From positions 751-64,750 of the forward strand of contig JBDRKP010000054.1 of assembly GCA_043813875.1 (NCBI GenBank): 64,000 nucleotides of DNA. The letters are read 5' to 3'. The notes beneath the pieces were generated by a model that saw only the letters and a list, made by a program, of their open reading frames with translations, did not search any database and had not been told where the DNA came from. The position numbers were made by a program, and so were the translations under genes. Positions 4,502 through 46,010 of this stretch are shown here, piece by piece. Position 1 is the stretch's first letter. Each line of letters starts with the position of its first letter. Source of the stretch: an archaeon. Its GTDB lineage: Archaea > EX4484-52 > B79-G9.

Positions 4502-6103
4502 TTAGTATTTTTGTTCATCCATTCTTCATATTCTGTATGTTCTCTCTGTAATTCTAATGATTTTACTCACTAAATTCTCACATTTATCTGCAATTTTTTC
4601 AAAAATTCTCTATTTCCTGTGTATTTTCTTTGGTTTTGTGTTCATTTCGACATATTGTTTCTTCATGTGAATTCACTTTCAATTCATGCAGTATATTTGT
4701 CTATGGCTGTGTTCTGATTCAAAACATTCATCTTCATTGCGATGAATATCACGTATCTTCATGTTTTACGGATATTCTTCGTGAATGATATCTGTTTCGT
4801 TAGTAGTTTGCTCTATTGCCGCAGAAATTTATTTATGGGTAATAATTCCTAAAAAAGTGTTATGGCTATGATCCTTATTTTTGGTCTGAGTTATCTCTTT
4901 TGAGTATAGCAATTCCGATGCTATTCCAACTCAGATGCGATTTGTATTTCCGCCTCAATATTCCTTTATCTTGTTGTTTATGTTGCTCTTAGTATGCTTC
5001 TTTTTTTTTTGTGTCATCTCCCGTTAGAGTCAACAGTGATTATTTTGGTTGGTCACATACTCATTTTGAGTGAAGTCGATGTATATGGAAATCGCAGTCA
5101 TTCAGCCGAAATATTGCTTTTTGCTATCTTATGCATGATTCGTATGATGCGTGTCTCACATTTGTTCTGGCAATTATTGATTGTGCGTGCTCTTGTGAAT
5201 TTTATTTGTTCTTTCTTTTGTGATATGATCTTGCAGGTTACCTTGTTTCTCATCCCGCTGTATTCTCTGCGGCTCTCCATATCCTCATTGATGGTAGTTT
5301 GATTTATGATTGAGGTCATTGATTTGGTGACTTACGCTGATGCTATGTGTGTTTTGTTCTCTGTTTAAAAAAGTGGCTTTTGGTCTTTGGCATTATTTTT
5401 TAATCGTAAACTGTCTTGTGATCGTCTCTTCATGAACTTGTCCTCGGACAATCAACCTTCTTTTTGAACGGTTGCCATAATGCTTGTTCTTTTTATTCGG
5501 GGTCTTCATAATTTCCAGTTATTATCCGATACTATCTGTGGTTACGAGGGCAAAAGTATCTGTTTTTTTATTTTGTATTTGTATGTATTTTATTGTTGGA
5601 TTATATTTGGGATAATTGGCTTATTTACAATCCTGTCTCCCGCATTAATATGATTATAGACCCCCGTAACGGGGTTACTATCTCTGTTTACTCGCGGGTA
5701 TTTTTATCGCCCTTGTCCGTTACTATCCGATACTATCTTTCCTAGTATCTATGGTTACTATAGATACTGCTCTATTGTTATCGTTTTTAAAGTAACGGAT
5801 ATGTTTGGTTATTTGTGCGCAGGCTATCGTTTTTCTTATGGTGGTTACTGTATCGGATACTATCGATATTATCGATATCATGGTAACCGATACTATCCAT
5901 TACTCTTATTTGTGTCTTTTTCATTGCCTATGATGCCTCTCTTGTCAATGAAAAAGCTTGAAATCCGCCAATCATACCGAAATTTCATGATTTTTCAATA
6001 AACTCTTATAAAAAACAGTATCTATAAGCCTATTTGTATGCTAGTAACCGTGGTTACCATTATGAGAAACCATATTATGTGTCTATTGCTATCGGTAACG
6101 GCT
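4502..6103. repeat. 1.6-kb AT/T-rich non-coding region with an iteron array (GGTTACTAT / CCGATACTATC / GGTAACC units, at least 8 copies between about 5520 and 6110)
   Basis: Direct reading shows no long ORF apart from a Tyr-rich repeat artefact. The motifs CCGATACTATC occur at about 5524, 5718, 5856 and 5890. GGTTACTAT/GTAACGG/GGTAACC occur at about 5672, 5745, 5800, 5842, 5883, 6048 and 6095. Confidence 0.5.
5950..5997. repeat. 48-bp palindromic intergenic element, copy 1 (A5-GCTTGAAAT-loop-ATTTCATGA-T5)
   Basis: GAAAAAGCTTGAAATccgccaatcataccgAAATTTCATGATTTTTCA. The TGAAAT/ATTTCA stem is flanked by A5 upstream and T5 downstream, so it is symmetric on both strands. Confidence 0.55.
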
Positions 6104-10511: not shown

Positions 10512-10898
10512 TCAGGCATTCATCGTCGCCTCAAGATAATCCTCGTAATACGGCCTGAAATCATCAAATTCCCTGATAGTATCAATAGCGATATCATATG
10601 CCTTATCATAATCATTGAATAGAAGCACCTTCCCATCCTCAAGCACCCGTTTTCTGATATATATCGGTAGCTTGTTGAATATCTGGACATCGATATCCGG
10701 AAACGCCGAAAGATATTTGAGCCTCTTCTTTGACATCAAAAGCGCGCTCATCCGGCTATCAACCACAAGCGCGACATCGACATCGCGATACTTCTCCCCC
10801 CTCGCCGCGCTCCCGAAAAGTATGACTGCGATGATCTCCTTATCCTCTTTGGCCATCTTAATCACTGGCTCCAAACGCGCCTTGAGTTTCCTGTCCAT
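10512..10898 (-). CDS. Minimal nucleotidyltransferase (MNT-type), solo
   Basis: ILFGSAARGEKYRDVDVALVV is a GS...D.D polymerase-beta-like NTase motif. The internal Met at about 10898 is preferred because a TATA (TTTATATTA) lies about 30 bp upstream of it. The track's GTG start at 11060 is rejected. Confidence 0.6.
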   Translation of the reverse strand: MDRKLKARLEPVIKMAKEDKEIIAVILFGSAARGEKYRDVDVALVVDSRMSALLMSKKRLKYLSAFPDIDVQIFNKLPIYIRKRVLEDGKVLLFNDYDKAYDIAIDTIREFDDFRPYYEDYLEATMNA

Positions 10899-11222
10899 AC
10901 AAACCCTATTGGCTGCGCTATAATATAAATCTGTTCTGTCGCGCGAGTAAAAAATCCCATCAAAAATGTGAGAGTTCCGCTCCTTGATCGATTGGCACGA
11001 ATCAGTCAAAATTTCCAGATTTAGAAAAAACCCTCTTTTGATGGCATCATTCAACACCACATAAAATCGACAGCGTGTAATGATTTATCCGTCAATATGT
11101 CTGCCTTTTCAGGGCTATCGGCAGCCAAAAAAGGCGCAAAAACTTCTCCAAAGACGCGATTACCATACACGTGACACATTAAACACAAAAAATATGATTT
11201 TCACAACAAACCCAAAAAAACG

Positions 11223-17094: not shown

Positions 17095-17182
17095 TATTTA
17101 AAATTTATCTGTTCTGCTTGCTCATCATAAATCTCTTACAATTTTATTTATGTTTTTATTGCATATCGTCTGCATTGGCAAT

Positions 17183-17228
17183 AAAAAGCTTGAAATTCTC
17201 CCATCAGGCCGGGATTTCATGATTTTTA
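17183..17228. repeat. 48-bp palindromic intergenic element, copy 2
   Basis: AAAAAGCTTGAAATtctcccatcaggccggGATTTCATGATTTTTA. It overlaps the 3' end of the HEPN gene and lies upstream of the thrC start. Confidence 0.55.
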
Positions 17229-17677
17229 AAGAACAAGGATGCGTTATCGATAGATTCTTTAGCCGGCTCAACATTCGCCTGCGGTAGCTTCTGGTATGTA
17301 TATTCTCCTCTCTTCCTTTTCTCAAGCGAGTATATGCTCAATAGTTCTTCGGCGCGCAGAAACATTTTCTTGTATATAGTCAATAGATGAACGTCAAGCC
17401 TGCCTGTCTTCACAAAAAAATCATCAAAAGCATCAATCGTTTTCTTATGAACCTCGGGCGCATCCGTTTTGATATCCTCCGTCATAAGAATTGCCTTTGC
17501 CGAATAGAAGATGCAGTAATATGCATGGCTTATGGCCGAACTATAGAACGTGAAATTCTTCTCGAGCTTGAATTCTTCTTTTTGAAGTCTTTCGTTATAA
17601 GAAGTCTCAAAAAGCAGTTGAGCCGCAACAAGTTCAGTCTCAGCTCTTTGCAGATACAGCTCAGCCAATGCGTTCAT
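17204..17677 (-). CDS. HEPN-domain protein (partner of the upstream nucleotidyltransferase)
   Basis: An all-alpha 157-aa protein that overlaps the NTase gene by 17 bp. Its N-terminal LAELYLQRAETELVAAQLLFE is typical of a HEPN helix. Confidence 0.6.
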   Translation of the reverse strand: MNALAELYLQRAETELVAAQLLFETSYNERLQKEEFKLEKNFTFYSSAISHAYYCIFYSAKAILMTEDIKTDAPEVHKKTIDAFDDFFVKTGRLDVHLLTIYKKMFLRAEELLSIYSLEKRKRGEYTYQKLPQANVEPAKESIDNASLFFKNHEIPA

Positions 17678-18287
17678 GTTTCACACCCTTTATCATATTA
17701 TAATACTCAATTAGCCCGTAAAAAACAACATTCTTCCTGTATATCTCTTTTCCGACATTCTCATCATCCGCCAGAAGCATTTCAATAAACTCATTTCTTG
17801 TAAAAACATGATAGTCGATATTGACAATCTCCCGCCTCTTCACAGTTTCAACATAAGGCGCAATATCCTTTTTAGCCTCCCCGCACTCGACAATAATCGC
17901 AATATCGACATCAGACTTCTGTGTTGCCTTATTTTCAGCATAACTGCCAAAGACAATAAGGACAAAGAACTCGGAATACTTCAATATCCTCTTTTGTATA
18001 TCCTCAAGTATCTTCTTCGGTAGTTTCCGGTTTTCATAAATCTCGAGTTCATTTATCAGGTTAAGATATGACAGTGTCAGATTATTGTCAAAATTAAGAT
18101 AATATGTCGTAACATCTCCGGTCATCTGCGTTCTGACAAGATTCTCATCAAGAAACTGTTTCAGCGCAATCTGGACAGTATTATTGGACTTCTGCTTGCT
18201 TTTTTCCTTTATATCCTTAAAAGTAAGGCGCCGAGAAACATCTTCCCGAAAAACACCTAAAATCCTCAACTGTTCCTTAGTCAACAT
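17661..18287 (-). CDS. HTH-fused nucleotidyltransferase (MNT family)
   Basis: N-terminal wHTH (LTKEQLRILGVFREDVSRRLTFKDIKE) plus the NTase motif LIVFGSYAENKATQKSDVDIAIIVE. Confidence 0.7.
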   Translation of the reverse strand: MLTKEQLRILGVFREDVSRRLTFKDIKEKSKQKSNNTVQIALKQFLDENLVRTQMTGDVTTYYLNFDNNLTLSYLNLINELEIYENRKLPKKILEDIQKRILKYSEFFVLIVFGSYAENKATQKSDVDIAIIVECGEAKKDIAPYVETVKRREIVNIDYHVFTRNEFIEMLLADDENVGKEIYRKNVVFYGLIEYYNMIKGVKHERIG

Positions 18288-27901: not shown

Positions 27902-28123
27902 AAGGATAATTGGACAGCAAGAATAATATACCTTACGTGAATCACCGAAAATATCATCCGGATGGTCTGTCTATAAATGCGATTAAGGGAAGTTTTGTTT
28001 CCGCGTGACCAGAAACAAAATTTGGTACTGACATAGTTTGGTACACTTCCCGGAATAATGCATAAACATTTAAATATTGATTATGAATATATATTCACAA
28101 CTAACCAATGGAGGTAGATAAAA

Positions 28124-28366
28124 ATGCCGAATAAAGACAGAACAGGACCCCTTGGACAAGGTGTTCAGACAGGAAGAGGTTTAGGTCCTTGTGGTGGAGG
28201 TATGCGAAAAGGATTAGGAAGAGGTTTTGGTAGAGGGCTGGGTTTAAGATGCAATAGATTAGTTCCTTTAACCGAAGCAGAGGAAAAGAAAGTCGTTGAA
28301 ACAGACCTTAAAGAACTTGATTTGGAAAAGCAAGAGATAGAGAAAAGACTAAAAGAGATGAACTGA
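28124..28366 (+). CDS. DUF5320-family small protein
   Basis: Gly/Arg-rich N-terminus (GPLGQGVQTGRGLGPCGGG) and a C-terminal coiled-coil. A GGAGG RBS lies upstream. This is the first gene of the low-GC island A. Confidence 0.7.
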   Translation: MPNKDRTGPLGQGVQTGRGLGPCGGGMRKGLGRGFGRGLGLRCNRLVPLTEAEEKKVVETDLKELDLEKQEIEKRLKEMN

Positions 28367-28428
28367 TTCATTTCTCTTGCTTTTTTCTTTTCGCAAAATT
28401 TAAATAGGAATATGAATAAGTATTCATT

Positions 28429-28902
28429 ATGGTACGTCCAAGATTGTGCAGAAGAGTTAGATTCAGCCCGGATGTAACCTATTTTAAGCCACAAGGCATT
28501 CCATTAAGAGAATTGCGAGAGGTTATTTTACATGTTGACGAATATGAGGCAGTCAGGCTTAAAGATTTAGAAGGATTAGAGCAGGAAGAATGCGCTAAAA
28601 AAATGAACATTTCACAACCGACTTTCCATCGGCTTGTGTTGTCTGCAAGAAAAAAAATAGCTGACGCCATTGTTAATGCTAAAGCAATCAAAATAGAAGG
28701 AGGTGCTTATGAAATGGTACAACCGATATTTGGAGGCGGAAGGGAACAGGCAGGAAGAATGGGCATAGGCATGGGCTTTGGAGGTCCTGCCATGACTTGC
28801 ATATGCCCTGATTGCGGATATCAGGAACAAAAGGTAAGAGAAGTGCCATGCGCCAGTAAAAAATGTCCCAAATGCGGCACACTGATGAGGAGAGGTGATT
28901 AA
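28429..28902 (+). CDS. DUF134 (UPF0251) predicted DNA-binding protein with a C-terminal zinc ribbon
   Basis: PRLCRRVRFSPDVTYFKPQGIPL...EAVRLKDLEGLEQEECAKKMNISQPTFHRLVLSARKKIADAIVNAKAIKIEG matches DUF134. The C-terminus has CPDCG...CPKCG. Confidence 0.8.
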   Translation: MVRPRLCRRVRFSPDVTYFKPQGIPLRELREVILHVDEYEAVRLKDLEGLEQEECAKKMNISQPTFHRLVLSARKKIADAIVNAKAIKIEGGAYEMVQPIFGGGREQAGRMGIGMGFGGPAMTCICPDCGYQEQKVREVPCASKKCPKCGTLMRRGD

Positions 28903-29248
28903 TATGAAAGTGGCCATAAGTTCGACTGGAAAGGATATAAACAGCAATGTTAGCAATGTGTTTGGAAGATGCCCTTATTTTGTTATCGCAGAGATTGAAA
29001 ACAAAAAAATTACAAAAATTGAATCAATGGAAAATACAACTGCGAATCAGGTGGGTATGGCAGGCATTTCTGCGGCACAGAAAGTTGCAGAAAAAAATGC
29101 AAACATTGTGATAGCAGCAGATGTTGGACCGAGAGCATTAGATGTTTTCAGGCAATTTGATATTATGGCATATAAAGGAAGCGGGACAGTCAAAGAAGTT
29201 TTGCAAAAATTTATAGACGATAGACTTGAGAAAATAGGAAGTAGGTGA
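28895..29248 (+). CDS. NifX/NifB-like dinitrogenase FeMo-cofactor-binding domain protein
   Basis: FGRCPYFVI signature of the Nitro_FeMo-Co domain. The 117-aa length fits. Confidence 0.8.
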   Translation: MINMKVAISSTGKDINSNVSNVFGRCPYFVIAEIENKKITKIESMENTTANQVGMAGISAAQKVAEKNANIVIAADVGPRALDVFRQFDIMAYKGSGTVKEVLQKFIDDRLEKIGSR

Positions 29249-29252
29249 GAAA

Positions 29253-29612
29253 ATGAAAATAGTGATTTCAACAGATGGTAAAAGAGGATTAGATGACACA
29301 GTGGCAGAACATTTTGGCAGATGTAATACATATACTTTTCTTGATGAGAAAGGCAATATTGTTGAAATAATAGACAACACCAGCGAGCACATGGGTGGCA
29401 CAGGGCTTCCACCAGAGCTTATGAAAAAACATGGAGCGGATGTCTTATTATGCAGAGGGCTTGGCCCAAGAGCTCTTGATCTGTGCAAAGAACTGGGAAT
29501 AGATGTTTATGTATGCCATGCAGAAACCGTAAAAGAAATATTTGAGAAATGGAAAAATAAGATAATTAAAAAGGCAGGTTTTGAAGATGTTTGCGAGGAG
29601 CATAGGCTATGA
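29253..29612 (+). CDS. NifX/NifB-like FeMo-cofactor-binding domain protein (second paralog)
   Basis: HFGRCNTYTFLD signature. A tandem paralog of the preceding gene. Confidence 0.8.
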   Translation: MKIVISTDGKRGLDDTVAEHFGRCNTYTFLDEKGNIVEIIDNTSEHMGGTGLPPELMKKHGADVLLCRGLGPRALDLCKELGIDVYVCHAETVKEIFEKWKNKIIKKAGFEDVCEEHRL

Positions 29613-30217
29613 AGAATAGCAAAGCAGAGGCATTTAATAGGAAATCATCTAGCCCGAAAAACAGACCCGATGATGTTATAAAAGCGTTGAGCTTAAAGCA
29701 GGGACAAAACATTGCAGACATAGGAGCAGGAGGAGGCTATTTTTCACTCAGGTTCGCAGAAATAGTCGGCGTAAAAGGAAAGGTTTATGCGATAGATATA
29801 AATCAGGATTTTCTGGAATTCATAAAAAATAGCGCTGCAGAAAAAGGTCTTGACAATTTAGAGATCGCTTTTGCCAAAGATGGCAAAATTGATTTGCCAA
29901 AGAAAAGAATTGATCTCATATTTTTCCGCAATATGACCCACCATATGGAAAACAGGGCTGAATATTTCAGGCAGCTAAATCAGTTCCTTGCTCCTCACGG
30001 CAGGATTGCCATTATAGAGTACAAAAAGGAAAGTTCCTTTACCTTCCACGGGATTTTCAGACATTACATTGCCAAAGAAACCTTGATGCAGGAGATGGAA
30101 GATGCTGGCTATGTTCCTGAGAGGGAACTTGATTTCTTGCCTGAACAGCACTTTGTTATTTACAGACGCGGGAGTTCTGCTTTAAACAAGAATAGGATTA
30201 AAGGTGAAAAAAGATGA
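29609..30217 (+). CDS. Class I SAM-dependent methyltransferase
   Basis: Motif I DIGAGGGYF and motif II KVYAIDIN. Confidence 0.75.
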   Translation: MKNSKAEAFNRKSSSPKNRPDDVIKALSLKQGQNIADIGAGGGYFSLRFAEIVGVKGKVYAIDINQDFLEFIKNSAAEKGLDNLEIAFAKDGKIDLPKKRIDLIFFRNMTHHMENRAEYFRQLNQFLAPHGRIAIIEYKKESSFTFHGIFRHYIAKETLMQEMEDAGYVPERELDFLPEQHFVIYRRGSSALNKNRIKGEKR

Positions 30218-31086
30218 GAATCGCAGTTACGGGCGGAAAAGGTGGAACAGGCAAGTCAATGGTAGCGACTTCATTAGCAGTTGAATTTGCAAGAAATGAA
30301 AAGACCCTGCTTATGGATGCGGATGCAGAATGCCCCAATGATCATTTACTGCTTTCCATAGATATGAAAAAATACGCTGCTGTTTATCAGCCGATACCTA
30401 AATGGAATTTTGATAAATGTATAAAATGTGGCAAGTGCGCTTCTGTCTGCAAACAAAATGCCATTGTTTTTGTTAAAGAGAAATATCCTGCTTTTGTTAA
30501 GGATGTTTGTATTGGTTGTAAAGCATGTATTGTTACATGCCCAAAAAAAGCTATAACTGAAACCAAAAAAGAAATCGGAACAATCTTTACAGGAAAAAAC
30601 TATAATGTAAATTTGGTTTCAGGCGAGCTCAAATTAGGAGAACTTGCATCAGGGGAGGTAGTTGCTGAATTAAGAAAATGTTCTGAAAAGATAGGCAAAA
30701 AGATGAAGGCAGATATAATTTTAATAGACTCTGCTGCAGGAGTTGGCTGCCCGGTAATCGCCTCTTTGGTCGGAACGGATTATATCGTTGGCGTAACAGA
30801 ACCAACACCATCTGCTCTTCATGATTTGAAAAGGGTTTTGTATCTGGCAAATCATTTTGGGATTAAGCATGGAATTGTCATAAACAAATTTGATCTTGAA
30901 AGAGGTTTCTGCTCAGAAATAGAGAAATTTGCAAAGGAGAACAATATACCTATTATTGGAAGGATTCCATACAGAAAAGTTTTTGTGGACTCAACAATAA
31001 AGATGAAGCCTGTTGTTGAAATAAACCCCAAATATAGAAAAACATTCGAGGAGATTATCAACAAAATAAAGATTGTGTGCGGTTAA
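30214..31086 (+). CDS. MinD/ParA-family P-loop ATPase with two embedded 4Fe-4S ferredoxin motifs
   Basis: Deviant Walker A GGKGGTGKS. Two CxxCxxCxxxCP clusters (CIKCGKCASVCKQ, CIGCKACIVTCP) are inserted after the P-loop. Confidence 0.8.
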   Translation: MRIAVTGGKGGTGKSMVATSLAVEFARNEKTLLMDADAECPNDHLLLSIDMKKYAAVYQPIPKWNFDKCIKCGKCASVCKQNAIVFVKEKYPAFVKDVCIGCKACIVTCPKKAITETKKEIGTIFTGKNYNVNLVSGELKLGELASGEVVAELRKCSEKIGKKMKADIILIDSAAGVGCPVIASLVGTDYIVGVTEPTPSALHDLKRVLYLANHFGIKHGIVINKFDLERGFCSEIEKFAKENNIPIIGRIPYRKVFVDSTIKMKPVVEINPKYRKTFEEIINKIKIVCG

Positions 31087-31116
31087 GAATGAAAGAATTG
31101 AGACATATAAACTGCA

Positions 31117-31500
31117 TTAATTTTTTTGGCATTTTTTACAGTCGTCTTTACATATACCTCTTACTTCAAGCTGAAAACTTCTTATCGAGCCAGGAATCTT
31201 GTCTTTTAGGAAATCCAGAGAGTCAATATTAAAGTGAAAAATCTTGCCAGTACTTTCACATATAAAATGGCAGTGGCTTTTATTCTGTTTGGAGTATATC
31301 GTTTTTCTGTCGCATTTATAAGAATATATCTGGTTGCTCTTTTTTAGCTCATTTAGAAACCGGTAAATTGTGGCAATTCCTATATTTTTTTCTTCTTTCT
31401 TAGCCTCTTCCAGTAAGTCTTCAGCAGTAAAAAAATTATTTATTTTTTCTAATTTTGTCTGAATGCTCTCTTTTTGTCTGGTGTTTCTTTTCTTTACCAT
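31117..31500 (-). CDS. Fur-family metalloregulator (likely Zur)
   Basis: DNA-binding helix ATIYRFL, a metal site HCHFICESTG..HF, and a C-terminal CxxC. It is divergent from znuA2. Confidence 0.75.
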   Translation of the reverse strand: MVKKRNTRQKESIQTKLEKINNFFTAEDLLEEAKKEEKNIGIATIYRFLNELKKSNQIYSYKCDRKTIYSKQNKSHCHFICESTGKIFHFNIDSLDFLKDKIPGSIRSFQLEVRGICKDDCKKCQKN

Positions 31501-31562
31501 ATAGATCTCTTATTGATAATCTTAATCAATAAGGTATTTAAAATGAGCCTATTTATAAATTT

Positions 31563-32564
31563 ATGGTGATTCCCATGAAAACTAAAATTATCTTTATGTC
31601 TGTGTTAATTGTTGCTGTTTTATTGGTTGCTGGTTGTGTAAACAATGTACAAAAAGAGTCTAAAGACAAGATGACAATTGTAACAACACTTTTTCCATTA
31701 TATGAATTTGCAAAAGAAGTCGGTGGTGAAAAGATTGATGTGACTCTTTTACTTCCACCAGGAGCAGAAGCCCACACTTTTGAGCCAAAGCCAAGCGATA
31801 TACAAAAAATAAACAACGCAGATGTTTTTTTATATATTGGAGCAGGCATGGAGCCATGGGCTCACGATATTGTGGAAGGTTCTAATAATAAGGACTTGTT
31901 GCTTTTAGATGCAAGCTCTAAAGTAACTTTGCTTAAATCAGAAGAGCATGATGAACACGAACATGAGGCAGAGGAAGAACACGATCACGAATCAGAAGAA
32001 CATGAAGAAGAGCATCAGCATGGTGAATATGACCCTCATATCTGGCTTGATTTTGAAAATGATGAAAAAATAGTGGATGCGATTGCTCAAACATTTGCCC
32101 AAAAAGACCCAAAAAATAGCGAGTTTTACATAAAAAATGCTCAAGGATATAATGCTAAGTTGAGTTCTTTGAATCAAAAGTATAGTGATGGGCTATCTAA
32201 TTGCAAACAAAAGGAATTCATATCAGGTGGGCATAACGCATTTGCATATCTTGCTCATAAATATAACCTCGAATCAATCTCAGCATTTGGAATATCCCCG
32301 GATTCTGAGCCAACTCCTCAGAAAATCAAAGAGATAGTTGATCTGACAAAAGAGCATGGCATTAAATACATATACTTTGAAAAATTAGTGAATCCAAAAA
32401 TGGCTGAGACAATTGCTCAGGAAGCAAATGCTAAAACATTAGTCTTAAATCCTGCGCATAATCTTCTAAAGGAGCAATTTCAGCAAGAAGTAACTTTCAT
32501 CTCTCTGATGGAAGAAAACTTACAGAATCTTAAAATTGGTTTGGAATGTGAATCAAATTCATGA
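31563..32564 (+). CDS. znuA: Zinc ABC transporter substrate-binding protein (island copy) with a His/Glu-rich loop
   Basis: Signal peptide plus a TroA-like SBP. A long acidic/His loop (EEHDEHEHEAEEEHDHESEEHEEEHQHGEYDPH) is diagnostic of zinc-specific ZnuA. Confidence 0.85.
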   Translation: MVIPMKTKIIFMSVLIVAVLLVAGCVNNVQKESKDKMTIVTTLFPLYEFAKEVGGEKIDVTLLLPPGAEAHTFEPKPSDIQKINNADVFLYIGAGMEPWAHDIVEGSNNKDLLLLDASSKVTLLKSEEHDEHEHEAEEEHDHESEEHEEEHQHGEYDPHIWLDFENDEKIVDAIAQTFAQKDPKNSEFYIKNAQGYNAKLSSLNQKYSDGLSNCKQKEFISGGHNAFAYLAHKYNLESISAFGISPDSEPTPQKIKEIVDLTKEHGIKYIYFEKLVNPKMAETIAQEANAKTLVLNPAHNLLKEQFQQEVTFISLMEENLQNLKIGLECESNS

Positions 32565-33295
32565 GCACCATGCTTAAACTGGAAAACATATCTTTTTCCT
32601 ATGCTAACTCGGATGTTGTAAAAGATATCTCCTTTTCAGTTAAAAAAGGAGATTTTGTAGGATTAATAGGTCCAAATGGCTCAGGAAAGACCACTCTCCT
32701 CAAAATTATATTAGGAATATTGAATCCGCGAAAAGGCTCTATTTATTTATTTGAAAGGGACTTGAAAAAATTTGATAAATGGGATAAGATTGGATATGTC
32801 CCACAAAAAGCAACAAATATCGAGAAAAATTTTCCAGCAACAGTTCATGAAGTCGTTTCTATGGGGCTTTTGGCAATTAAGAAATTTCCGAAAATAATCA
32901 CAAAACAAGATGACACAGAAATAAAAAATGCTCTTTCTGTTGTAAGGATGGAAAAATATTCACAAAAAAGGATTACTGAGCTTTCTGGAGGGCAACAGCA
33001 AAGAGTTTTAATCGCAAAAGCATTGGTAACAAAGCCAGAAATCTTGATTCTTGACGAGCCGACAACAGGAGTTGATCAGGAAAACCAGAAGTCATTTTAT
33101 GACTTGCTTGGAAAACTCAACAAAGAAGGAATGACTATTGTTTTAGTGTCCCATGATATTGGAAGAATAACTCAGTATGTAACTAAAATAGCAAGTATTA
33201 ACCAAACACTTAATTTTTATGGGAGTCACAAAGAATTTTGCTTAAAAGATCCAGCCCATAAACATGAGCATAGTTTATGCTTGGATAAAGGTTAA
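32561..33295 (+). CDS. znuC: Zinc ABC transporter ATP-binding protein (island copy)
   Basis: GPNGSGKTT, LSGGQQQRV and ILILDEP. Confidence 0.9.
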   Translation: MSTMLKLENISFSYANSDVVKDISFSVKKGDFVGLIGPNGSGKTTLLKIILGILNPRKGSIYLFERDLKKFDKWDKIGYVPQKATNIEKNFPATVHEVVSMGLLAIKKFPKIITKQDDTEIKNALSVVRMEKYSQKRITELSGGQQQRVLIAKALVTKPEILILDEPTTGVDQENQKSFYDLLGKLNKEGMTIVLVSHDIGRITQYVTKIASINQTLNFYGSHKEFCLKDPAHKHEHSLCLDKG

Positions 33296-33298
33296 AAA

Positions 33299-34147
33299 AT
33301 GATTGAAATACTATCTTACGCATTCATGCAGAAAGCATTTATTTCTGGAATAGTTATAGCTATTGCATGCTCGCTTTTGGGAATGTTTTTAGTATTAAGA
33401 AAATTCTCATTAATTGGAGATGGAATTGCTCACATCTCTTTTGGAGGAGTCGCTACCGGACTGTTATTTAATATAACACCATTTACGGGTGCTCTTTTGT
33501 TTGGATTAATAGGTTCATTTGGAATACTTAAGCTGAAAGAAAAGTCGCATTTACATGGGGATGCTGCAATAGGAATAGTAAGCCATGTAAGTTTGGGTCT
33601 TGGAATATTTATTGCCAGCATTGCAAGTGGTTTTAATGTAGATATATTGAGTTATTTGTTCGGAAGCATACTTTCAATAAAGACCAATGAGTTGGTTTTA
33701 TCTATTTTTTTGGCATTGACAGTTATTGCATTTATTCTCAGTTACTATAAAGATTTGTTTTATATCTCATTTGATGAAGAATCTGCAAAAGTTTCTGGAA
33801 TAAACGTAGATTTCCTGAATTCGATGCTTATCGTTTTGACAGCAGTTACAATTGTCTGCTCAATGAATGTGGTTGGGCTTATGCTTGCATCATCATTAAT
33901 AATATTGCCCGCTGCATCTGCCTTACAAGTTAAAGCAAGTTTTAAGAGAACTTTATTATATGCTGTGGTTATCTCAGTATTTTCAGTAGTTTCTGGACTC
34001 GTTATTGCATATTATTATGACTTTGCAGTATCTGGAACTATTGTTCTTATTAACGCCTTTGTTTTTCTATCGCTTTTGGTCTATAATAAATTGCAAACAT
34101 ATTTTTCATCACATATAAATTCTAAACCCGTAGATGAAAAAGCTTGA
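33299..34147 (+). CDS. znuB: Zinc ABC transporter permease (island copy)
   Basis: Polytopic ZnuB-family permease. Its TGA stop lies inside copy 3 of the 48-bp palindromic element (AAGCTTGA). Confidence 0.85.
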   Translation: MIEILSYAFMQKAFISGIVIAIACSLLGMFLVLRKFSLIGDGIAHISFGGVATGLLFNITPFTGALLFGLIGSFGILKLKEKSHLHGDAAIGIVSHVSLGLGIFIASIASGFNVDILSYLFGSILSIKTNELVLSIFLALTVIAFILSYYKDLFYISFDEESAKVSGINVDFLNSMLIVLTAVTIVCSMNVVGLMLASSLIILPAASALQVKASFKRTLLYAVVISVFSVVSGLVIAYYYDFAVSGTIVLINAFVFLSLLVYNKLQTYFSSHINSKPVDEKA

Positions 34148-34183
34148 AATCCCCCAATAACATCAAAATTTCATGATTTTTCA
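34136..34183. repeat. 48-bp palindromic intergenic element, copy 3
   Basis: GAAAAAGCTTGAAATcccccaataacatcaAAATTTCATGATTTTTCA, located between the convergent znuB (island copy) and the thioredoxin-like gene. Confidence 0.55.
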
Positions 34184-34316
34184 GTAAGAAAGTTGAGTGC
34201 GTCCCTTTAGTTACAAAATCCCCCTCGTTCTTAGTTTAGTAAGCCGAAAATTGAATATATCAATACTTTGTCCTATATTTGCCCATCTCTACCATAGCCA
34301 CGCCTCATTCTGTGGG

Positions 34317-34721: not shown

Positions 34722-34778
34722 CCGGTATGTGATATTCCTGAGATATTATTGATATTTATATGGATGTTTATATGAATT

Positions 34779-34890
34779 TATAGTTGACGTCGTTACTAGC
34801 TGGACAAATATAACCTATGAACCAATAGACGTCAATCTATATGGAAAAGTCATATAGTCCAAAAAGTTATGACTTTTACTATATATCTGA
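34779..34890. repeat. Approximately 110-nt structured repeat, copy A (TATAGTTGACGTCGTTACT ... AGACGTCAATCTATATGG ... inverted repeats)
   Basis: About 80% identical to 61989-62140. It contains long-range inverted repeats (TATAGTTGACGTC / GACGTCAATCTATA; AAAAGTCATA / TATGACTTTT). Confidence 0.5.
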
Positions 34891-37920: not shown

Positions 37921-38024
37921 ACTAACTTATCCGGTCATCAATATATTTATATTTAAGGAATTTTCTCACGCCTTGACATGAAAAATAAATAGTAATAAAT
38001 AAAGGTTATGTTTAAGTATAATAT

Positions 38025-40823
38025 ATGGATGAAAAACAGACTAGAGAGCAGTTAATAGACAAACAGTTAAAATCTGCGGGCTGGCTTAAAAAATATATAA
38101 AAGAAGAAGTTAATTCGGTTAAATCAAATTTTAAAAATAAAGATTATGTGCTTTCTAAAGGCAGGAATGATGATTCGGGAAGATTTCTAGATTATTTGTT
38201 GCTGGCTGAAGATAATAGTCCAATTGCTTTAATTGAAGCCAAAAAAACCTCGGTTTCAGTAGATAGCGGGCGAGCTCAATCAAGAACATATCTTAAAGAT
38301 ATTGAATCTCAAACAAAGGAAAAAATCCCTATTTTTTTAACTAATGGTACTAACTGGCTTCTCATAGATCAAGATGGAATTGAGCGATATGTTAGTGGGC
38401 CTTTCTCCCAATCGGACTTGAAAAGAAGGATGGAACTTTTTAGAAAGAGGAGAGATCCGACTAAAATCAATATCGGAAAAATTGTAGATCGGCCAAAAAG
38501 CATTCTTATTGTTAAACAAATGATGGAACATATTCAAAATGGTCACAGAACAGCCTTAATAAATATGGCTACAGGAACAGGAAAGACCAGGGTTGCTATG
38601 GCAATTATTGATGTTCTGCTTAGAGCAAATATTGTGAGGAATGTTTTATTTATCGCTGATAGAATTGCATTGACTAATCAGGCAAAATCGGCTGGTTTTA
38701 AGGAATTTTTTGGTAGTGAAGCGGTAACCGATTTACGTGATAATCCTCAAAGTTTTCCAAATGGCTTATATGTTTCAACAATTCAGACCCTTAAGGGTGG
38801 TAAGAAAAGAAGATACTATCCTAAAATTAATTCCGGATTTTTTGATTTGATTATTTTTGATGAAGCCCATAGATCTATTTATGATCCGACCCAAGAAATA
38901 TTTAGATATTTTGATGCCATAAAACTTGGACTTACAGCAACGCCATCAAAAGAGGAAAGTCATAACACATTTAAGTTGTTTGGTTGTGTTGACAATAAGC
39001 CAACAGTTGAATATTCTTATGATGAAGCAATACGGGATGGAGTTTTAGTTCCTTATAATGCGGAGATAATTGATACAAAAAATTTAACACTGGGAATCGA
39101 AGGAGCTAAACTTGATAAGTATCTTCAAGACCAATTAAGAAAACAAGAAGAAGATCCAAATTATACTATGCTTTCAGGCGGGTCTTTTGCAAAAGTTTTT
39201 ATGGATGACAAAACTAATGAATTGATTATCCGAGAATTTATGAATAGATGTTATAAATCTGATGAAGGAAAACCGGCAAAAACGATATTCTTTTGTGCAA
39301 ATCAAAAACATGCATGGCATATTAAACGAATATTTAGTAAATTATATCCTAAGTTAAATGATGATGTTCAGGTAATAGTTTCAGAGGTTTATCGTTATAC
39401 TGATGAATTGGCTAGATTCAAATTAGATTCTGAGCCAAGAATAGCTTTATCTGTTGGTGTTTTAGATACGGGAGTTGATATACCCGAAGTGTGCAATTTA
39501 GTTTTTGTTAAACCCGTTTTCACACCAATAAGGTTTTGGCAAATGTTGGGTAGAGGGACTAGAAATTATAATTCTTGTAAGCATAAAGACTGGCTTCCAA
39601 ATAGTGAGAAAAATGATTTTTTAATTATGGATTTTAAAATTGGAGAGCATTCAAATATCAAGTATCATAATCTTAAAGTTGCCAAAGAAAGTAAGGCCGG
39701 AACAGATTCTATGACTATAAGTTTCATAAATAAAGTAGAACTGTTAAAGAAAAAATTAAACCCTACTCAAAAAGAATTTGTTGAAACAAAAATCATTAAT
39801 GAGGTAGATTCCTTAGATAAAGATTCGTTTATTGTCAGAGAAAAACTTTCATTAATTAATACTATATTGGATACTAGGAGCGTTTCTTCTAAATCAATGA
39901 TGGTTGCAGAAACAAAAGAACCGTATGGGGCTAGTATAAAGAAAACTGTAAGATCACGATTTGAGTTAAAAGATTACATCGGTGAATTAAAAAATGAGAT
40001 TGCGCCACTTATTTCGTTAAATCCTGGAAAACATCCTATTGTTTCTTCATTCATTTTACAAGTTGAAAAATTATTCAAGTTTATTTTAGATAATAATAAA
40101 GACGGCATATATAAGATACAAGAATCGGTTAAAGAAAAAATGGAGAATATCTTACAGAAAGATAATTTGGAAGCGATTCAAGAAAAAAGACAAGACATAT
40201 TGAGGGTTTTTCAAGAGAACTTCTGGGATGAACTGACTTTTTACGATGTTGAGTTTATGATTACAGAGCTTGCACCATTGATGGTTTATTATGAAAAAAA
40301 TCCAAAAAGAATGATTCAGATTGATGCTCCAGATTTAGTTTTAAAGGTTGAAGAATTCAAGAAAGAAGTTAAAGTGGACGACGAATTAATTAAATTTTTA
40401 GAAACAAATCCTCTTGTCAATAAAATCAGGAACGGGGAAGGAATAACTCCCGCTGAATTGCTCAAGCTTGAGGAACAATTAAGTGCATTACGACCAGAAA
40501 TAACTATTGATAATGTCCAGAGGATTCAAAAGATTGATTTTTTGGTTTTCTTAAGAAATATATTGGGCTTGAAGCAAGAATACGACCCTTCGGTTTTGAT
40601 AGAGCGGGAGTTTGACAAGCATATTCTTGAAAAAAGCCAGCATTATACTTCTGAGCAGATAAAGTTCTTACAGATTTTAAAAAAGGTGTTTGCTCGTACA
40701 AAGCACATAGAATTAAAGGATTTTACGGTTCCGCCTCTTTCTAATGAACGGCCTCTTGATAAGTTTCAGACTTCCGAGCTTCAAAGAATAGTTCTTGAGT
40801 GTAATAAGATTAAGATGAGGTAA
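38025..40823 (+). CDS. hsdR: Type I restriction enzyme, R subunit
   Basis: N-terminal HsdR_N nuclease-like domain (LLLAEDNSPIALIEAKK), helicase motif I NMATGTGKT, and motif II DEAH (IIFDEAHRS). 932 aa. Confidence 0.8.
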   Translation: MDEKQTREQLIDKQLKSAGWLKKYIKEEVNSVKSNFKNKDYVLSKGRNDDSGRFLDYLLLAEDNSPIALIEAKKTSVSVDSGRAQSRTYLKDIESQTKEKIPIFLTNGTNWLLIDQDGIERYVSGPFSQSDLKRRMELFRKRRDPTKINIGKIVDRPKSILIVKQMMEHIQNGHRTALINMATGTGKTRVAMAIIDVLLRANIVRNVLFIADRIALTNQAKSAGFKEFFGSEAVTDLRDNPQSFPNGLYVSTIQTLKGGKKRRYYPKINSGFFDLIIFDEAHRSIYDPTQEIFRYFDAIKLGLTATPSKEESHNTFKLFGCVDNKPTVEYSYDEAIRDGVLVPYNAEIIDTKNLTLGIEGAKLDKYLQDQLRKQEEDPNYTMLSGGSFAKVFMDDKTNELIIREFMNRCYKSDEGKPAKTIFFCANQKHAWHIKRIFSKLYPKLNDDVQVIVSEVYRYTDELARFKLDSEPRIALSVGVLDTGVDIPEVCNLVFVKPVFTPIRFWQMLGRGTRNYNSCKHKDWLPNSEKNDFLIMDFKIGEHSNIKYHNLKVAKESKAGTDSMTISFINKVELLKKKLNPTQKEFVETKIINEVDSLDKDSFIVREKLSLINTILDTRSVSSKSMMVAETKEPYGASIKKTVRSRFELKDYIGELKNEIAPLISLNPGKHPIVSSFILQVEKLFKFILDNNKDGIYKIQESVKEKMENILQKDNLEAIQEKRQDILRVFQENFWDELTFYDVEFMITELAPLMVYYEKNPKRMIQIDAPDLVLKVEEFKKEVKVDDELIKFLETNPLVNKIRNGEGITPAELLKLEEQLSALRPEITIDNVQRIQKIDFLVFLRNILGLKQEYDPSVLIEREFDKHILEKSQHYTSEQIKFLQILKKVFARTKHIELKDFTVPPLSNERPLDKFQTSELQRIVLECNKIKMR

Positions 40824-40825
40824 TT

Positions 40826-40851
40826 TGTAAACTTGAGTTTACAAATTAGCT
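40826..40851. terminator. Perfect 11-bp inverted repeat (AATTTGTAAAC-ttga-GTTTACAAATT) 3 bp after the hsdR stop
   Basis: Read directly from the sequence. It lies between hsdR and the embedded operon. Confidence 0.4.
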
Positions 40852-40868
40852 AAAGGTATATAAAGCTA

Positions 40869-41288
40869 TTGGTTCAAGTTATTGATATGATTAAAGAAAA
40901 ATGGGATGATAAGTATGATGTCAAGACGGTATCTGCTAAACTCAACCAGCTGGATTTTGTTAAATTTAAAATACACTGTGATACTAAAGGCATAACTCCT
41001 TCAAAGGAAATTAAAAATTTAATCGCTCATGAAATTAATGATCCAATAGCACAGAATGTTGCAGGTAAAAGCGTTTTTGTGTATAATCCTGCAAAAGACA
41101 ATTTCGGCTGGAAAGCTGTTTTGGATAAAGAGATTATTTCTTATATTGAAGATGACTTGTCTTTTGAATTTTTGAAGCAGTTAAAAGATGCTATTGATGT
41201 GGCAATTGATGAGCGAAACACATTCATACAGAAAACTAATAACGATTCTGTTTCAATACCAGGTAAAATACTGAGGAAAGGATTATGA
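40869..41288 (+). CDS. Hypothetical protein (first gene of the operon embedded in the R-M locus)
   Basis: 139 aa with no recognised domain. It overlaps the next gene by 4 bp. Confidence 0.4.
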   Translation: MVQVIDMIKEKWDDKYDVKTVSAKLNQLDFVKFKIHCDTKGITPSKEIKNLIAHEINDPIAQNVAGKSVFVYNPAKDNFGWKAVLDKEIISYIEDDLSFEFLKQLKDAIDVAIDERNTFIQKTNNDSVSIPGKILRKGL

Positions 41289-42157: not shown

Positions 42158-42206
42158 TGGTTGTGTGTTTGAATGGATAAATTAAGTAATTTACCTAAAA
42201 GATGGA

Positions 42207-43523: not shown

Positions 43524-44196
43524 GGTGGACAAACGAAAAATAGAGATATTAAAGTTAATTGATAAGGCGAAAAATTCAAATTATTGTGAAGATTATACGA
43601 CTTTGAAACGAGCAGGATATGAAAGTGGTTTGTTAAAATCCATGATCGACGATAAGTTAATAGAGTATAATTATTCGTTTTACCTAAAAGAAAAGGGCGA
43701 GACAATATTGCGTGATTATCTTATGATTGAAGCATTAGATAAAAAAAATACACCTAAACTCAAGATTATCTTTGATAGTAATGTGTATGATGAAATTGTC
43801 TCTGGAAATTTAAACCTCAATACAATCAACAAGGAAAAATATGAATTTTATATAACCCATATTCAGTCAGACGAGATAAGTAGCTGTCCTGATAATGAAA
43901 AAAGACAAGTACTAACATTGTTTCTATTAAAAATCGCACCAATAATAATTCCTACGGAATCAATAGTTCTCGACGTTTCAAGGTTTGGAGAAGCAAAGTT
44001 TGGAGATGGTCAACTTTTAGAAAAACTAAAGATAGGTAATTCTAAACACACAAAAGATGCTTTAATAGGCGAAACTGCAATTAAAAACAAACTTATTCTC
44101 GTCACGAATGATAAAAAAATGAACATCCGTGTGAATTTAAATGGTGGAAAGGCCATAGATATACACGAATTCAAAGAGATGTTAAATAATGATTAA
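43516..44196 (+). CDS. PIN-like domain protein (putative nuclease) with an N-terminal extension
   Basis: KIIFDSNVYDEIV (first acidic PIN motif) and DALIGETAIKNKLILVTNDKK (a C-terminal PIN motif similar to VapC A.IaatA...LvT.D). Confidence 0.45.
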   Translation: MFEVDKRKIEILKLIDKAKNSNYCEDYTTLKRAGYESGLLKSMIDDKLIEYNYSFYLKEKGETILRDYLMIEALDKKNTPKLKIIFDSNVYDEIVSGNLNLNTINKEKYEFYITHIQSDEISSCPDNEKRQVLTLFLLKIAPIIIPTESIVLDVSRFGEAKFGDGQLLEKLKIGNSKHTKDALIGETAIKNKLILVTNDKKMNIRVNLNGGKAIDIHEFKEMLNND

Positions 44197-45966: not shown

Positions 45967-46010
45967 GTGATCGTGCATGAATACTCCAATTGGGTACTTG
46001 AGGTGAAAAC

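What the first reader, a model, noticed from the sequence alone, without database searches (positions are those of the whole stretch)
5950..5997. A 48-bp palindromic A5-hairpin-T5 element present three times (5950, 17183, 34136)
The consensus is AAAAAGCTTGAAAT-N16-20-(A/G)ATTTCATGATTTTT. A 6-7-bp stem (TGAAAT/ATTTCA) is flanked by an A-run on one side and a T-run on the other, so each strand presents a hairpin followed by oligo-U. In archaea oligo-T is the main termination signal. All three copies sit at gene 3' ends: after the HTH gene at 6104, at the stop of the HEPN gene at 17204 ahead of thrC, and overlapping the stop codon of the island-copy znuB. The element looks like a dispersed bidirectional terminator or a small mobile intergenic repeat. 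The strict conservation of the flanks (HindIII site AAGCTT included) across core and island DNA is more than coincidence.
Basis: seen in the sequence. Interest (0 to 1): 0.5.

Follow-up and report, generated by a model that had tools for sequence, protein, structure and literature searches.

The report
Tiny hairpin mobile element in DPANN archaea
The three "A5-hairpin-T5" repeats are copies of a roughly 65-bp mobile DNA element with no transposase gene of its own; it inserts at TTTTT(N)A sites, has cut off the ends of two genes in this window, and is spread through several lineages of small-genome (DPANN) archaea.

Summary
AAAAAGCTTGAAAT-N17-ATTTCATGATTTTT occurs at 5951-5995, 17183-17227 and 34137-34181, all on the + strand, with 0 mismatches in the 28 flank bases and 0 matches expected by chance.

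The 45 bp are only the 3' part of a 64-68-bp insertion: a variable 5' hairpin (H1), then the conserved imperfect hairpin (H2). The insertion is bracketed by a direct repeat of the target, TTTTT(C)A.

- A relative has the empty site at copy 3.
- Deleting the body plus one repeat in silico restores full-length znuB (278 aa) and HEPN (160 aa) with the C-termini of their homologues.
- About 100 copies occur in DPANN-type archaeal MAGs. They are almost all intergenic, show no preferred orientation to neighbouring genes, and often sit in tandem arrays whose copy number differs between close relatives.
- The H2 stem covaries, but its G·A and T·T mismatches are essentially invariant.
- It has no terminal inverted repeats, no Rfam family, no neighbouring transposase and no literature match.

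The terminator look (T5 on both strands) comes from the target preference. Termination may be a side effect but is not the reason the repeat exists. The mobilising enzyme is unknown. The anatomy resembles IS200/IS605-type hairpin ends (PATE/REP-like) most closely, but membership is not established.

The parts
5917..5923 (+). Copy 1, left copy of the target repeat TTTTTCA. It also forms the outer 5' arm of hairpin H1.
   Evidence: Sequence. The same 7 nt recur at 5991-5997. It pairs with 5949-5955 (TGAAAAA) in the folds.
5924..5990 (+). Copy 1, element body (67 bp). It comprises TTGC, the H1 loop, CAATG, an A5 'guide', and H2 (arms GCTTGAAAT 5956-5964 and ATTTCATGA 5982-5990; loop 5965-5981).
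   Evidence: (67.2 bits). Syntenic relatives L067 and L068 have no element at this position.
5991..5997 (+). Copy 1, right copy of the target repeat TTTTTCA.
17153..17158 (+). Copy 2, left copy of the target repeat TTTTTA. On the - strand this is part of the K-N codons of the original HEPN reading frame.
17159..17222 (+). Copy 2, element body (64 bp), inserted inside the HEPN coding sequence. It supplies the new tail ...HEIPA and the stop codon used by ORF 17204-17677(-).
   Evidence: (56.1 bits).
17223..17228 (+). Copy 2, right copy of the target repeat TTTTTA.
17125..17152 (-). Displaced original 3' end of the HEPN gene (…INKIVRDL, stop), cut off by copy 2.
   Evidence: Removing 17159-17228 gives a 160-aa ORF ending FFKNINKIVRDL*. 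Homologues end FFKNINKIIRG or FFKNINKVIRK.
34101..34108 (+). Copy 3, left copy of the target repeat (A)TTTTTCA. It lies within the znuB codons Y-F-S.
   Evidence: The empty site in L065 reads catATTTTTCAacgagaaag.
34109..34176 (+). Copy 3, element body (68 bp), inserted inside znuB. It supplies the new tail SHINSKPVDEKA and the stop codon at 34145-34147.
   Evidence: (68.6 bits).
34177..34183 (+). Copy 3, right copy of the target repeat TTTTTCA.
34184..34210 (+). Displaced original 3' end of znuB (VRKLSASL, stop), cut off by copy 3.
   Evidence: Removing 34109-34183 gives a 278-aa ZnuB ending YFSVRKLSASL*. Homologue P0003 ends FFSARKLSASL.

Best explanation
**Shown**
- Each copy is an insertion of a 64-68-bp non-coding element, bracketed by a 6-8-bp direct repeat of an oligo-T target, TTTTT(N)A.
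- The element runs, 5' to 3': TTGC, a variable loop of about 15-20 nt, GCAA, T-N', A5, then an imperfect hairpin H2 (GCTTGAAAT, a 17-nt loop beginning nCnCCAA, ATTTCATGA).
- The central A-run, with the few bases before it, is complementary both to the left target copy (forming hairpin H1) and to the right one (extending H2).
- The element always sits in one orientation relative to the asymmetric target.
- It has no terminal inverted repeats.
- It occurs singly and in direct tandem arrays that gain and lose units between close relatives.
- Longer relatives carry 40-66 extra nt between H1 and H2.

**Inferred**
- It is a non-autonomous transposable element, moved in trans by an enzyme that reads the strand-specific imperfect hairpin.
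- The most likely enzyme is an HUH/Y1 single-strand transposase of the IS200/IS605 (or RAYT) kind.
- In that model the A-rich segment at the 5' foot of H2 acts as a guide that pairs with the T-rich target and with the right-end cleavage site. The apparent target duplication would then be the target plus the element's own right end.

**Consequence**
Because the target is T5, the element tends to land in T-rich DNA. It supplies new stop codons, and oligo-T on both strands, to the genes it truncates.
For: **Mobility**
- Empty versus filled site at copy 3: L065 and the window are 91.6% identical over 3.8 kb.
- A second empty/filled pair, L019 versus L025.
- In-silico excision restores znuB and HEPN to the length and C-terminus of their homologues.
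- A nested insertion occurs in L033.
- Copy number and element type differ at orthologous loci of close relatives.

**Family size and spread**
- 60 archaeal loci carry the pattern in GTDB representative genomes.
- Covariance-model searches give about 100 hits.
- 29 more loci carry it in metagenome contigs.
- Three copies sit in the same TyrRS-HTH spacer of a relative with about 80% identical SerRS.

**Hairpin under selection**
- H2 shows 20 double-change cells against 3.7 in shuffles, 0/500. Compensated stems include GGAAT/ATTCC, GAAAAT/ATTTTC and GGAAAT/ATTTCC.
- The G·A and T·T mismatches are kept in 96-98 of 98 copies.
- The N/N' position in H1 covaries: T-A 58, A-T 20, G-C 12, C-G 4, out of 125.
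- The guide is complementary to at least one flank in most informative copies.

**Not tied to neighbouring genes**
- No recurrent neighbour gene; the flanks are housekeeping genes.
- Orientation relative to genes is random.

**Background**
- IS200/IS605 is the most widespread IS family in archaea (PMC13343696).
- Terminal-only derivatives as short as 52 bp, with near-terminal palindromes and no inverted repeats, are described as PATEs (PMC3119063).
Against: - No transposase of any kind was found next to any copy or in the 64-kb window.
- No H1-gene-H2 autonomous copy was seen.
- IS200/IS605 elements and PATEs are defined as causing no target duplication, whereas a 6-8-bp direct repeat is seen here. 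In L009, L013 and L052 the left and right repeats agree with each other but not with the guide. That fits a true duplication better than guide-defined ends.
- Orientation is mixed over short distances within contigs. This gives no support to a lagging-strand bias.
- The three window copies differ greatly outside the H2 arms. They are therefore not recent copies of one master, and the invariance of the arms could instead reflect a host function selected in place.
- All 77 seed copies were retrieved with an exact-arm pattern, which inflates the apparent conservation of the arms.
Confidence: 0.72

Rival explanations
1. The element is a bidirectional transcription terminator selected in place at gene 3' ends: a hairpin followed by oligo-U on either strand.
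For: - T5 follows the H2 hairpin on the + strand, and GCTTTTT follows it on the - strand, in every copy.
- Oligo-T is the archaeal termination signal (established knowledge).
- All three window copies are at or near gene 3' ends.
Against: - The 3' T5 is the duplicated target and already exists at the empty site.
- Copies 2 and 3 interrupt ORFs instead of following them.
- There is no enrichment for 3' ends (79 against 92) or for sense orientation, and 19 of 78 copies lie between divergent genes.
- Tandem arrays of identical units occur.
- The strict conservation of the mismatches and of the loop motif CCAA is not needed for termination.
Confidence: 0.1
2. The element is a small RNA gene family. 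Each unit carries its own promoter (TATAAA in the H1 loop, about 25 nt before the A-run) and ends at the T-run. This would give a roughly 45-nt hairpin RNA whose C-rich loop (CCACCAA) acts on some target such as Shine-Dalgarno-like sequences. Mobility would only be the means by which it spread.
For: - Many copies have RTATAAAGTATG at a fixed distance upstream of AAAAAGCTT.
- Stem covariation and a conserved loop motif are present.
- The same H1 module precedes other 'bodies' that also end in H2.
- The upstream neighbour gene faces away from H1 in 51 of 82 cases, often 44-73 nt away, so an outward promoter is conceivable.
Against: - The window copies have degenerate motifs (CTATGAT, ATATCGT) in place of TATAAA.
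- Short connector hairpins without any TATA replace H1 in tight arrays.
- No Rfam family matches, even at E<=10.
- No expression data are available.
- The T-run comes from the target.
- RNA fold z-scores are modest, -0.3 to -2.5.
Confidence: 0.1
3. The element is a classical MITE moved by a DDE transposase that makes a staggered cut and a true target-site duplication of about 7 bp at T-rich sites.
For: - Direct repeats of 6-8 bp flank the copies.
- In L009, L013 and L052 the two repeats agree with each other although the internal A-rich segment does not match them.
- The element is small and non-coding.
Against: - Once the repeats are removed, no terminal inverted repeats remain: TTGCRTAT... 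at one end against ...ATTTCATGA at the other.
- The element is always in the same orientation relative to an asymmetric target.
- Repeat length varies from 6 to 12 nt.
- The internal segment is complementary to the flanks.
Confidence: 0.12
4. The element is a CRISPR-like mini-array or solitary repeat unit: GCTTGAAAT and ATTTCATGA would be the end and start of a repeat flanking a 17-nt pseudo-spacer.
For: - CUUGAAAU resembles the 8-nt crRNA 5' handle AUUGAAAS (from memory, a lead only).
- Arrays have a regular period of 54-77 nt.
Against: - The 'spacers' are only 17 nt, share a consensus, and are often identical within an array.
- The 'repeats' between them differ from unit to unit.
- No cas genes were seen among the window genes that were scanned or in the partial (top-25 families) listing for the flanking ORFs.
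- The insertion and duplication evidence is not explained by this reading.
Confidence: 0.02

Closest known systems
PATEs (palindrome-associated transposable elements) and 'terminal-only' derivatives of IS200/IS605-type transposons in haloarchaea (PMC3119063)
   Same: [quoted passage not shown]
- No terminal inverted repeats.
- Near-terminal palindromes.
- Insertion next to a short specific target oligonucleotide in a fixed orientation.
- Heterogeneous sequence outside the palindromes.
- High copy number, and nested insertions occur.
   Different: - PATEs cause no target duplication, whereas a 6-8-bp direct repeat flanks these copies.
- No IS605-type transposon with matching ends has been found.
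- The target is longer (T5NA), and 6-10 nt of ordinary Watson-Crick complementarity link an internal segment to it.
- The host is a DPANN archaeon, not a haloarchaeon.
IS608 / ISDra2 ends (IS200/IS605 'peel and paste' single-strand transposition)
   Same: - An imperfect subterminal hairpin whose mismatches distinguish the top strand from the bottom strand.
- A short segment at the 5' foot of the hairpin is complementary to the target and to the cleavage site 3' of the hairpin.
- Insertion is orientation-specific.
   Different: - Only one strongly conserved hairpin is present (H2); the left hairpin is short and variable.
- The hairpin has a 17-nt loop with a conserved motif.
- The guide-target pairing is longer and canonical.
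- No enzyme has been identified, so this is an analogy and not a test.
Bacterial REP / BIME / REPIN elements mobilised by RAYT transposases (PMC2817692)
   Same: - Short imperfect palindromes with conserved stems and variable loops.
- Tens of copies per genome, mostly extragenic.
- Often clustered.
- No linked transposase at each copy.
   Different: - Clusters here are direct tandem repeats, not alternating orientations.
- There is no GTAG/GGAG 5' motif.
- The element is AT-rich rather than GC-rich.
- Copies can interrupt ORFs.
- To my knowledge RAYTs have not been reported in archaea (from memory).
MITEs that insert into gene ends (for example Rickettsia palindromic elements and Neisseria Correia elements)
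   Same: - Small non-coding insertions with a target duplication.
- They can alter protein termini and bring regulatory signals.
   Different: - Those elements have terminal inverted repeats and are 100-150 bp or longer.
- This element has no inverted termini and is only about 65 bp.

Membership tests
Archaeal oligo-T terminator | A run of five or more T on the sense strand just downstream of a gene | tested here: met
   T5 follows H2 on the + strand, and T5 (GCTTTTT) follows it on the - strand. However, the + strand run pre-exists at the empty site.
Archaeal oligo-T terminator | Positioned at gene 3' ends, in the sense orientation of the gene it serves | tested here: not met
   79 adjacent 3' ends against 92 adjacent 5' ends. 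19 of 78 copies lie between divergent genes. Two window copies lie inside ORFs.
Archaeal oligo-T terminator | Transcript 3' ends map to it | not testable with these tools
   No RNA data are available.
MITE | Terminal inverted repeats related to those of a transposase-encoding IS | tested here: not met
   After the direct repeat is removed, the termini are TTGCRTAT... and ...ATTTCATGA, which are not inverted copies of each other. The 14-bp A5/T5 inverted arms are internal to the element and target-derived respectively.
MITE | Target-site duplication | tested here: met
   TTTTTCA (copy 1), TTTTTA (copy 2), ATTTTTCA (copy 3), ATTTTTAT (L067) and TTTTTAT (L025). Two empty sites were found.
MITE | Small and non-coding | tested here: met
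   Bodies are 64-68 bp. Short ORFs across the copies are not conserved in frame, and there are loop length variants.
PATE / IS200-IS605-derived element | No terminal inverted repeats, with palindromes close to the termini | tested here: met
   H1 is at the 5' end and H2 at the 3' end. Both are supported by covariation.
PATE / IS200-IS605-derived element | No target duplication | tested here: inconclusive
   A 6-8-bp direct repeat is present. It could be the target plus an identical element right end. Sequence alone cannot separate the two readings, and three copies favour a true duplication.
PATE / IS200-IS605-derived element | Insertion in a fixed orientation next to a specific short target | tested here: met
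   The first three positions of the T-run 3' of H2 are T in 92-97 of 98 copies (73-78 at the fourth and fifth), and the corresponding T-run lies 5' of H1.
PATE / IS200-IS605-derived element | Ends homologous to those of a TnpA/TnpB-encoding transposon in the same genomes | not tested
   No H1-gene-H2 arrangement was seen in about 0.45 Mb of fetched loci. Whole genomes could not be scanned, and the Pfam overview of flanking ORFs showed only the top 25 families.
REP / BIME (RAYT-associated) | Conserved GTAG/GGAG tetranucleotide 5' of a GC-rich palindrome, with clusters in alternating orientation | tested here: not met
   The 5' context is AAAAAGCTT, the element is 22-35% GC, and the arrays are direct.
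REP / BIME (RAYT-associated) | A single-copy RAYT gene flanked by the repeats | not testable with these tools
   This needs complete genomes of the carriers.
CRISPR array / solitary repeat unit | Identical repeats separating unique spacers of 25-50 nt, with cas genes nearby | tested here: not met
   The inter-arm segments are 17 nt and share a consensus, and the connectors vary. No cas domains were found in the scanned window genes.
Any Rfam RNA family | Covariance-model match | tested here: not met
   There were 0 hits at gathering score in the window and 0 at E<=1 in five element-rich loci. Only chance-level hits appeared at E<=10 around copy 1.

The most novel reading that the evidence does not exclude
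The element is a minimal, self-contained substrate of a single-strand (HUH/Y1 or RAYT-like) transposition system in DPANN archaea. It would choose its insertion site by 6-10 nt of ordinary base pairing between an internal A-rich guide and the target, so that changing the guide would retarget it. Alternatively, or in addition, the invariant H2 hairpin has been co-opted by these streamlined genomes as a REP-like functional module, for example for termination, transcript stability or protein binding.
Probability: 0.25. Interest if true: 0.75.

Novelty: new variant of a known kind. Interest (0 to 1): 0.5.

Why it matters
- DPANN archaea are regarded as streamlined and poor in insertion sequences. 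One survey of complete genomes found no IS elements in Nanohalarchaeota. A hairpin element of about 65 bp, present at tens of copies per genome across several DPANN lineages, would be invisible to IS-finding tools.
- The element demonstrably rewrites gene ends: it replaced the C-termini of ZnuB and of a HEPN toxin in this window.
- It coincides with assembly breaks. The 100-N gaps in L068 and L069 begin where the relative L067 carries a copy; in L068 the gap starts exactly at that copy's target repeat.
- It varies in copy number between close relatives, which makes it a ready strain marker.
- Its anatomy is a compact model for hairpin-guided insertion: a single strongly conserved imperfect hairpin, a segment complementary to both flanks, and strict orientation.
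- If target choice really depends on pairing, the system would be of mechanistic and possibly practical interest.

Tried and rejected
- **Small peptide gene.** MKKLEI... on the + strand and MKFRYDW... on the - strand were considered. The frames are not conserved between copies, variation shows no codon periodicity, and loop length variants of 16-20 nt occur.
- **Remnant of the HEPN 3' end copied elsewhere.** Rejected, because the similarity stops at the element boundaries.
- **C/D-box sRNA, K-turn or bulge-helix-bulge.** By inspection the boxes do not fit (CUUGA and AUGAUU instead of CUGA and UGAUGA). Only chance-level snoRNA hits appeared in Rfam.
- **Integron attC site.** There are no RYYYAAC/GTTRRRY cores, and the flanking genes are housekeeping genes rather than cassettes.
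- **CRISPR-like array.** See the rival explanations.
- **Viral or plasmid origin.** There were 0 hits in IMG/VR.
- **Literature search for the sequence.** It returned only unrelated primers. Searches on DPANN plus repeats found nothing relevant.
- **Search for an autonomous copy or transposase.** No orphan H1...gene...H2 arrangement was found, there is no recurrent neighbour family, and the window genes are housekeeping, R-M or transport genes. The bulk Pfam scan of 148 flanking ORFs lists only the 25 commonest families, so it cannot exclude a single transposase.
- **Exact-protein look-ups.** Those for the window's own ZnuB and ThrC found nothing on record.
- **Four bacterial hits of the pattern** (Agriterribacter x2, Legionella, Flavobacterium). 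They have 18-19-nt spacers, lack the A/T runs or the loop motif, and score only 26-38 bits. They were treated as chance or unrelated matches.
Full report
**1. Observation**

The three copies exist as described, with small corrections. The exact frame is AAAAAGCTTGAAAT-N17-ATTTCATGATTTTT (45 bp), at 5951-5995, 17183-17227 and 34137-34181. All three are on the + strand. There are no mismatches in the 28 arm bases, the spacing is always 17, and no matches appear in 100 shuffles. A version of the pattern with 20 N finds nothing.

The two arms are an imperfect inverted repeat matching at 12 of 14 positions. A covariance model of the core finds only these three copies in the window: 68.6, 67.2 and 56.1 bits, with the next hit at 19.7 bits.

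**2. The repeat is part of a larger unit**

A listing of 77 copies from other genomes shows a second hairpin (H1) directly upstream. It has the form TTTT-N-ATTGC, a loop of about 17 nt, then GCAAT-N'-AAAA, which runs into AAGCTTGAAAT. All three window copies have H1:
- Copy 1: TTTTTCATTG...CAATGAAAAA
- Copy 2: TTTTTATTGC...GCAATAAAAA
- Copy 3: TTTTTCATC...GATGAAAAA

The N/N' position covaries: T-A 58, A-T 20, G-C 12, C-G 4, out of 125.

The H2 stem also covaries. Examples are GGAAT/ATTCC, GAAAAT/ATTTTC and GGAAAT/ATTTCC. On 98 model hits there are 20 double-change cells against 3.7 in shuffles, 0/500. By contrast, the G·A and T·T mismatches are present in 96-98 of 98 copies. The first half of the 17-nt loop carries a conserved nCnCCAA motif.

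**3. It is an insertion**

*Copy 3.* A contig from another sample (L065) is 91.6% identical to the window over 3.8 kb, and its ZnuB is 93% identical. It reads ...catATTTTTCAacgagaaagttgagtgcg. The window reads ...catATTTTTCA[68-bp body]TTTTTCAgtaagaaagttgagtgcg.

Deleting 34109-34183 yields a 278-aa ZnuB ending YFSVRKLSASL*. This matches homologues that end FFSARKLSASL. As it stands, the gene ends in 12 element-encoded residues and an element-encoded stop codon.

*Copy 2.* Homologues of the HEPN protein end FFKNINKIIRG or FFKNINKVIRK. The window protein ends FFKN-HEIPA. Deleting 17159-17228 yields a 160-aa ORF ending FFKNINKIVRDL*. The element therefore sits inside the coding sequence, 8 codons before the original stop. 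It is flanked by TTTTTA on both sides, and on the - strand this repeat is part of the F-K-N codons.

*Copy 1.* It is flanked by TTTTTCA on both sides. Syntenic relatives (SerRS 80-81% identical) have no element at the corresponding point, although one of them carries three other copies in the same TyrRS-HTH spacer.

*A second empty/filled pair.* L019 reads aaggTTTCTTATTagcttttccc. L025 has two tandem units between aaggTTTTTTATT and TTTTTATGagcttctccc.

*Other signs of turnover.* A nested insertion occurs in L033. Differences in unit number or type at orthologous loci of close relatives complete the picture.

**4. Distribution**

The pattern occurs in 60 archaeal stretches of GTDB representative genomes. 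One MAG alone (CSMAG_1486) contributes 20 contigs. It also occurs in 29 metagenome contigs and in no IMG/VR contig.

The carriers fall into at least three groups of related MAGs. Proteins are 80-99% identical within groups and only about 26-59% identical between groups, though this rests on few proteins.

The submitters' labels conflict. 'Methanosarcinales' SFP3_US_04_2 shares up to 83% protein identity and near-identical element loci (L036/L040, 94-96%) with 'Nanohalarchaeota' CSMAG_321, which in turn is 78-99% identical to concoct_152.

The window itself is DPANN-like:
- Its SerRS is closest to unnamed sequences (76-81%) and then to Woesearchaeota/Nanoarchaeia (about 61-62%).
- Its ZnuB and HEPN have Nanoarchaeota, Pacearchaeota and Woesearchaeota best hits.

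Flanking genes are housekeeping genes with no recurrent partner. Copies are almost always intergenic and have no preferred orientation to their neighbours.

**5. What it is not**

No Rfam family matches. It has no coding signature and no CRISPR or integron anatomy. The sequence is not mentioned in the literature.

**6. Mechanism**

*Shown.*
- The target is oligo-T plus N-A.
- A 6-8-bp direct repeat flanks the body.
- The element is always oriented with the T-runs on the H2-sense strand.
- There are no terminal inverted repeats.
- An internal A-run, with the preceding 1-4 nt, is complementary to the left flank (29 of 54 copies over all 4 extra positions) and often to the right flank.
- Folding therefore alternates between H1 plus a short H2, and an extended H2.

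*Inferred.* These four features are the hallmarks of IS200/IS605-type single-strand transposition and its non-autonomous derivatives: an asymmetric target with fixed orientation, no inverted termini, a strand-marking imperfect hairpin, and a segment at the 5' foot of the hairpin that pairs with the target and the 3' cleavage site. PATEs are one such derivative, and terminal-only forms as short as 52 bp are described (PMC3119063). IS200/IS605 is the commonest IS family in archaea (PMC13343696).

*Against membership.*
- PATEs make no target duplication.
- In three copies the two flanking repeats agree with each other but not with the guide.
- No transposase or autonomous copy was found.

I therefore say it works most like a hairpin-ended, trans-mobilised element. 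I do not file it as a PATE, a MITE or a REP.

**7. The terminator idea**

Because the target is T5 and the element carries GCTTTTT on the opposite strand, every copy presents oligo-T after a hairpin in both directions. It may therefore terminate transcription as a side effect.

Its placement does not follow gene ends in general. The window's apparent association with 3' ends is three insertions into T-rich DNA, two of which truncate the gene.

**8. Caveats**

- The seed set was collected with an exact-arm pattern, so arm conservation is overstated.
- Gene calls in the loci are crude longest-ORF calls.
- Between-group protein identities rest on few proteins.
- The three window copies are very different outside the H2 arms. 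Either several diverged source elements coexist, or the arms are selected in place. This could not be resolved.

**9. Verdict**

This is a real feature that does not appear to have been described. It is a family of very small hairpin-bearing mobile elements in DPANN archaea: a new variant of the known class of non-autonomous prokaryotic transposable elements. The mobilising enzyme is unidentified, and the dependence of target choice on base pairing is possible but unproven.

Noticed in passing
window 34778-34886, 53763-53870, 61989-62135 (also L001, L008, L016, L032, L059, L064): A second, unrelated small repeat family lies in intergenic DNA. Its layout is TATAGT, stem A (about 9 bp), a roughly 33-nt loop containing CCAAAAACCAA, stem A', CTATATGG, stem B (9 bp), a loop, stem B', then ACTATA(GT). 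Both stems differ in sequence between copies but keep their pairing. No Rfam match was found at E<=10. It is probably another hairpin-type mobile element or a structured RNA.
   Followed up: partly
window 62060-62125 (inside the 61989-62135 copy of the second family): The stem-B loop carries TTTTGAAC-GTCA-GTTCAAAAGCTTGGCAT-GTAA-GTGCCATGAAAAGG. This is an H1'-H2'-like module with the same AAGCTTG...CATGA frame as the finding but a different inner stem (GGCAT/GTGCC). It suggests that the frame with its two mismatches is the recognised feature.
   Followed up: no
window 5500-6060 (compare L067 8560-8880 and L068 2580-2900): This is an ORF-poor, AT-rich spacer between the TyrRS and HTH genes. It contains multiple direct and inverted 16-20-bp boxes (GTTAC..CCGATACTATC.., TACTATCTGTGGTTAC). 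The boxes are conserved in relatives whose proteins are only about 80% identical. It may be a replication origin or a multi-site regulatory region. Copy 1 is inserted among these boxes.
   Followed up: partly
L068 2406-2504 and L069 2400-2498: Scaffold gaps of 100 N lie where relative L067 carries an element copy; in L068 the gap begins exactly at ...ctgatttttat, that copy's target repeat. The repeats probably break short-read assemblies.
   Followed up: no
window 28000-34000 and 38000-48000: There are two low-GC (0.31-0.39), positive-GC-skew islands in a 0.42-0.50 GC, negative-skew background. The first holds DUF134, a methyltransferase, MinD/Fer4, FUR and ZnuABC. The second is a type I restriction-modification system (HsdR, HsdS, HsdM) interleaved with ORF6N, Schlafen/AlbA-HTH and Bro-N genes.
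   Followed up: partly
window 17204-18287 and 10512-11060: A nucleotidyltransferase-HEPN pair lies directly upstream of thrC, and its HEPN toxin was C-terminally truncated by copy 2. A second, solitary nucleotidyltransferase gene lies at 10512-11060.
   Followed up: no
L019 3480-3860; L033 and L053 (flank of the element); L095 250-470: Several arrays of the element sit immediately next to tRNA genes. In L019 the neighbouring tRNA appears to carry an intron.
   Followed up: no
L001, L034, L036 versus L016, L040 and L031, L055: The taxonomic labels of the carrier MAGs conflict. 'Methanosarcinales archaeon SFP3_US_04_2' shares up to 83% protein identity and near-identical element loci (L036/L040) with 'Nanohalarchaeota CSMAG_321', whose proteins are 78-99% identical to those of an unnamed MAG (concoct_152). 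That unnamed MAG also encodes an MtrH-like protein (L031 1410-2309).
   Followed up: partly
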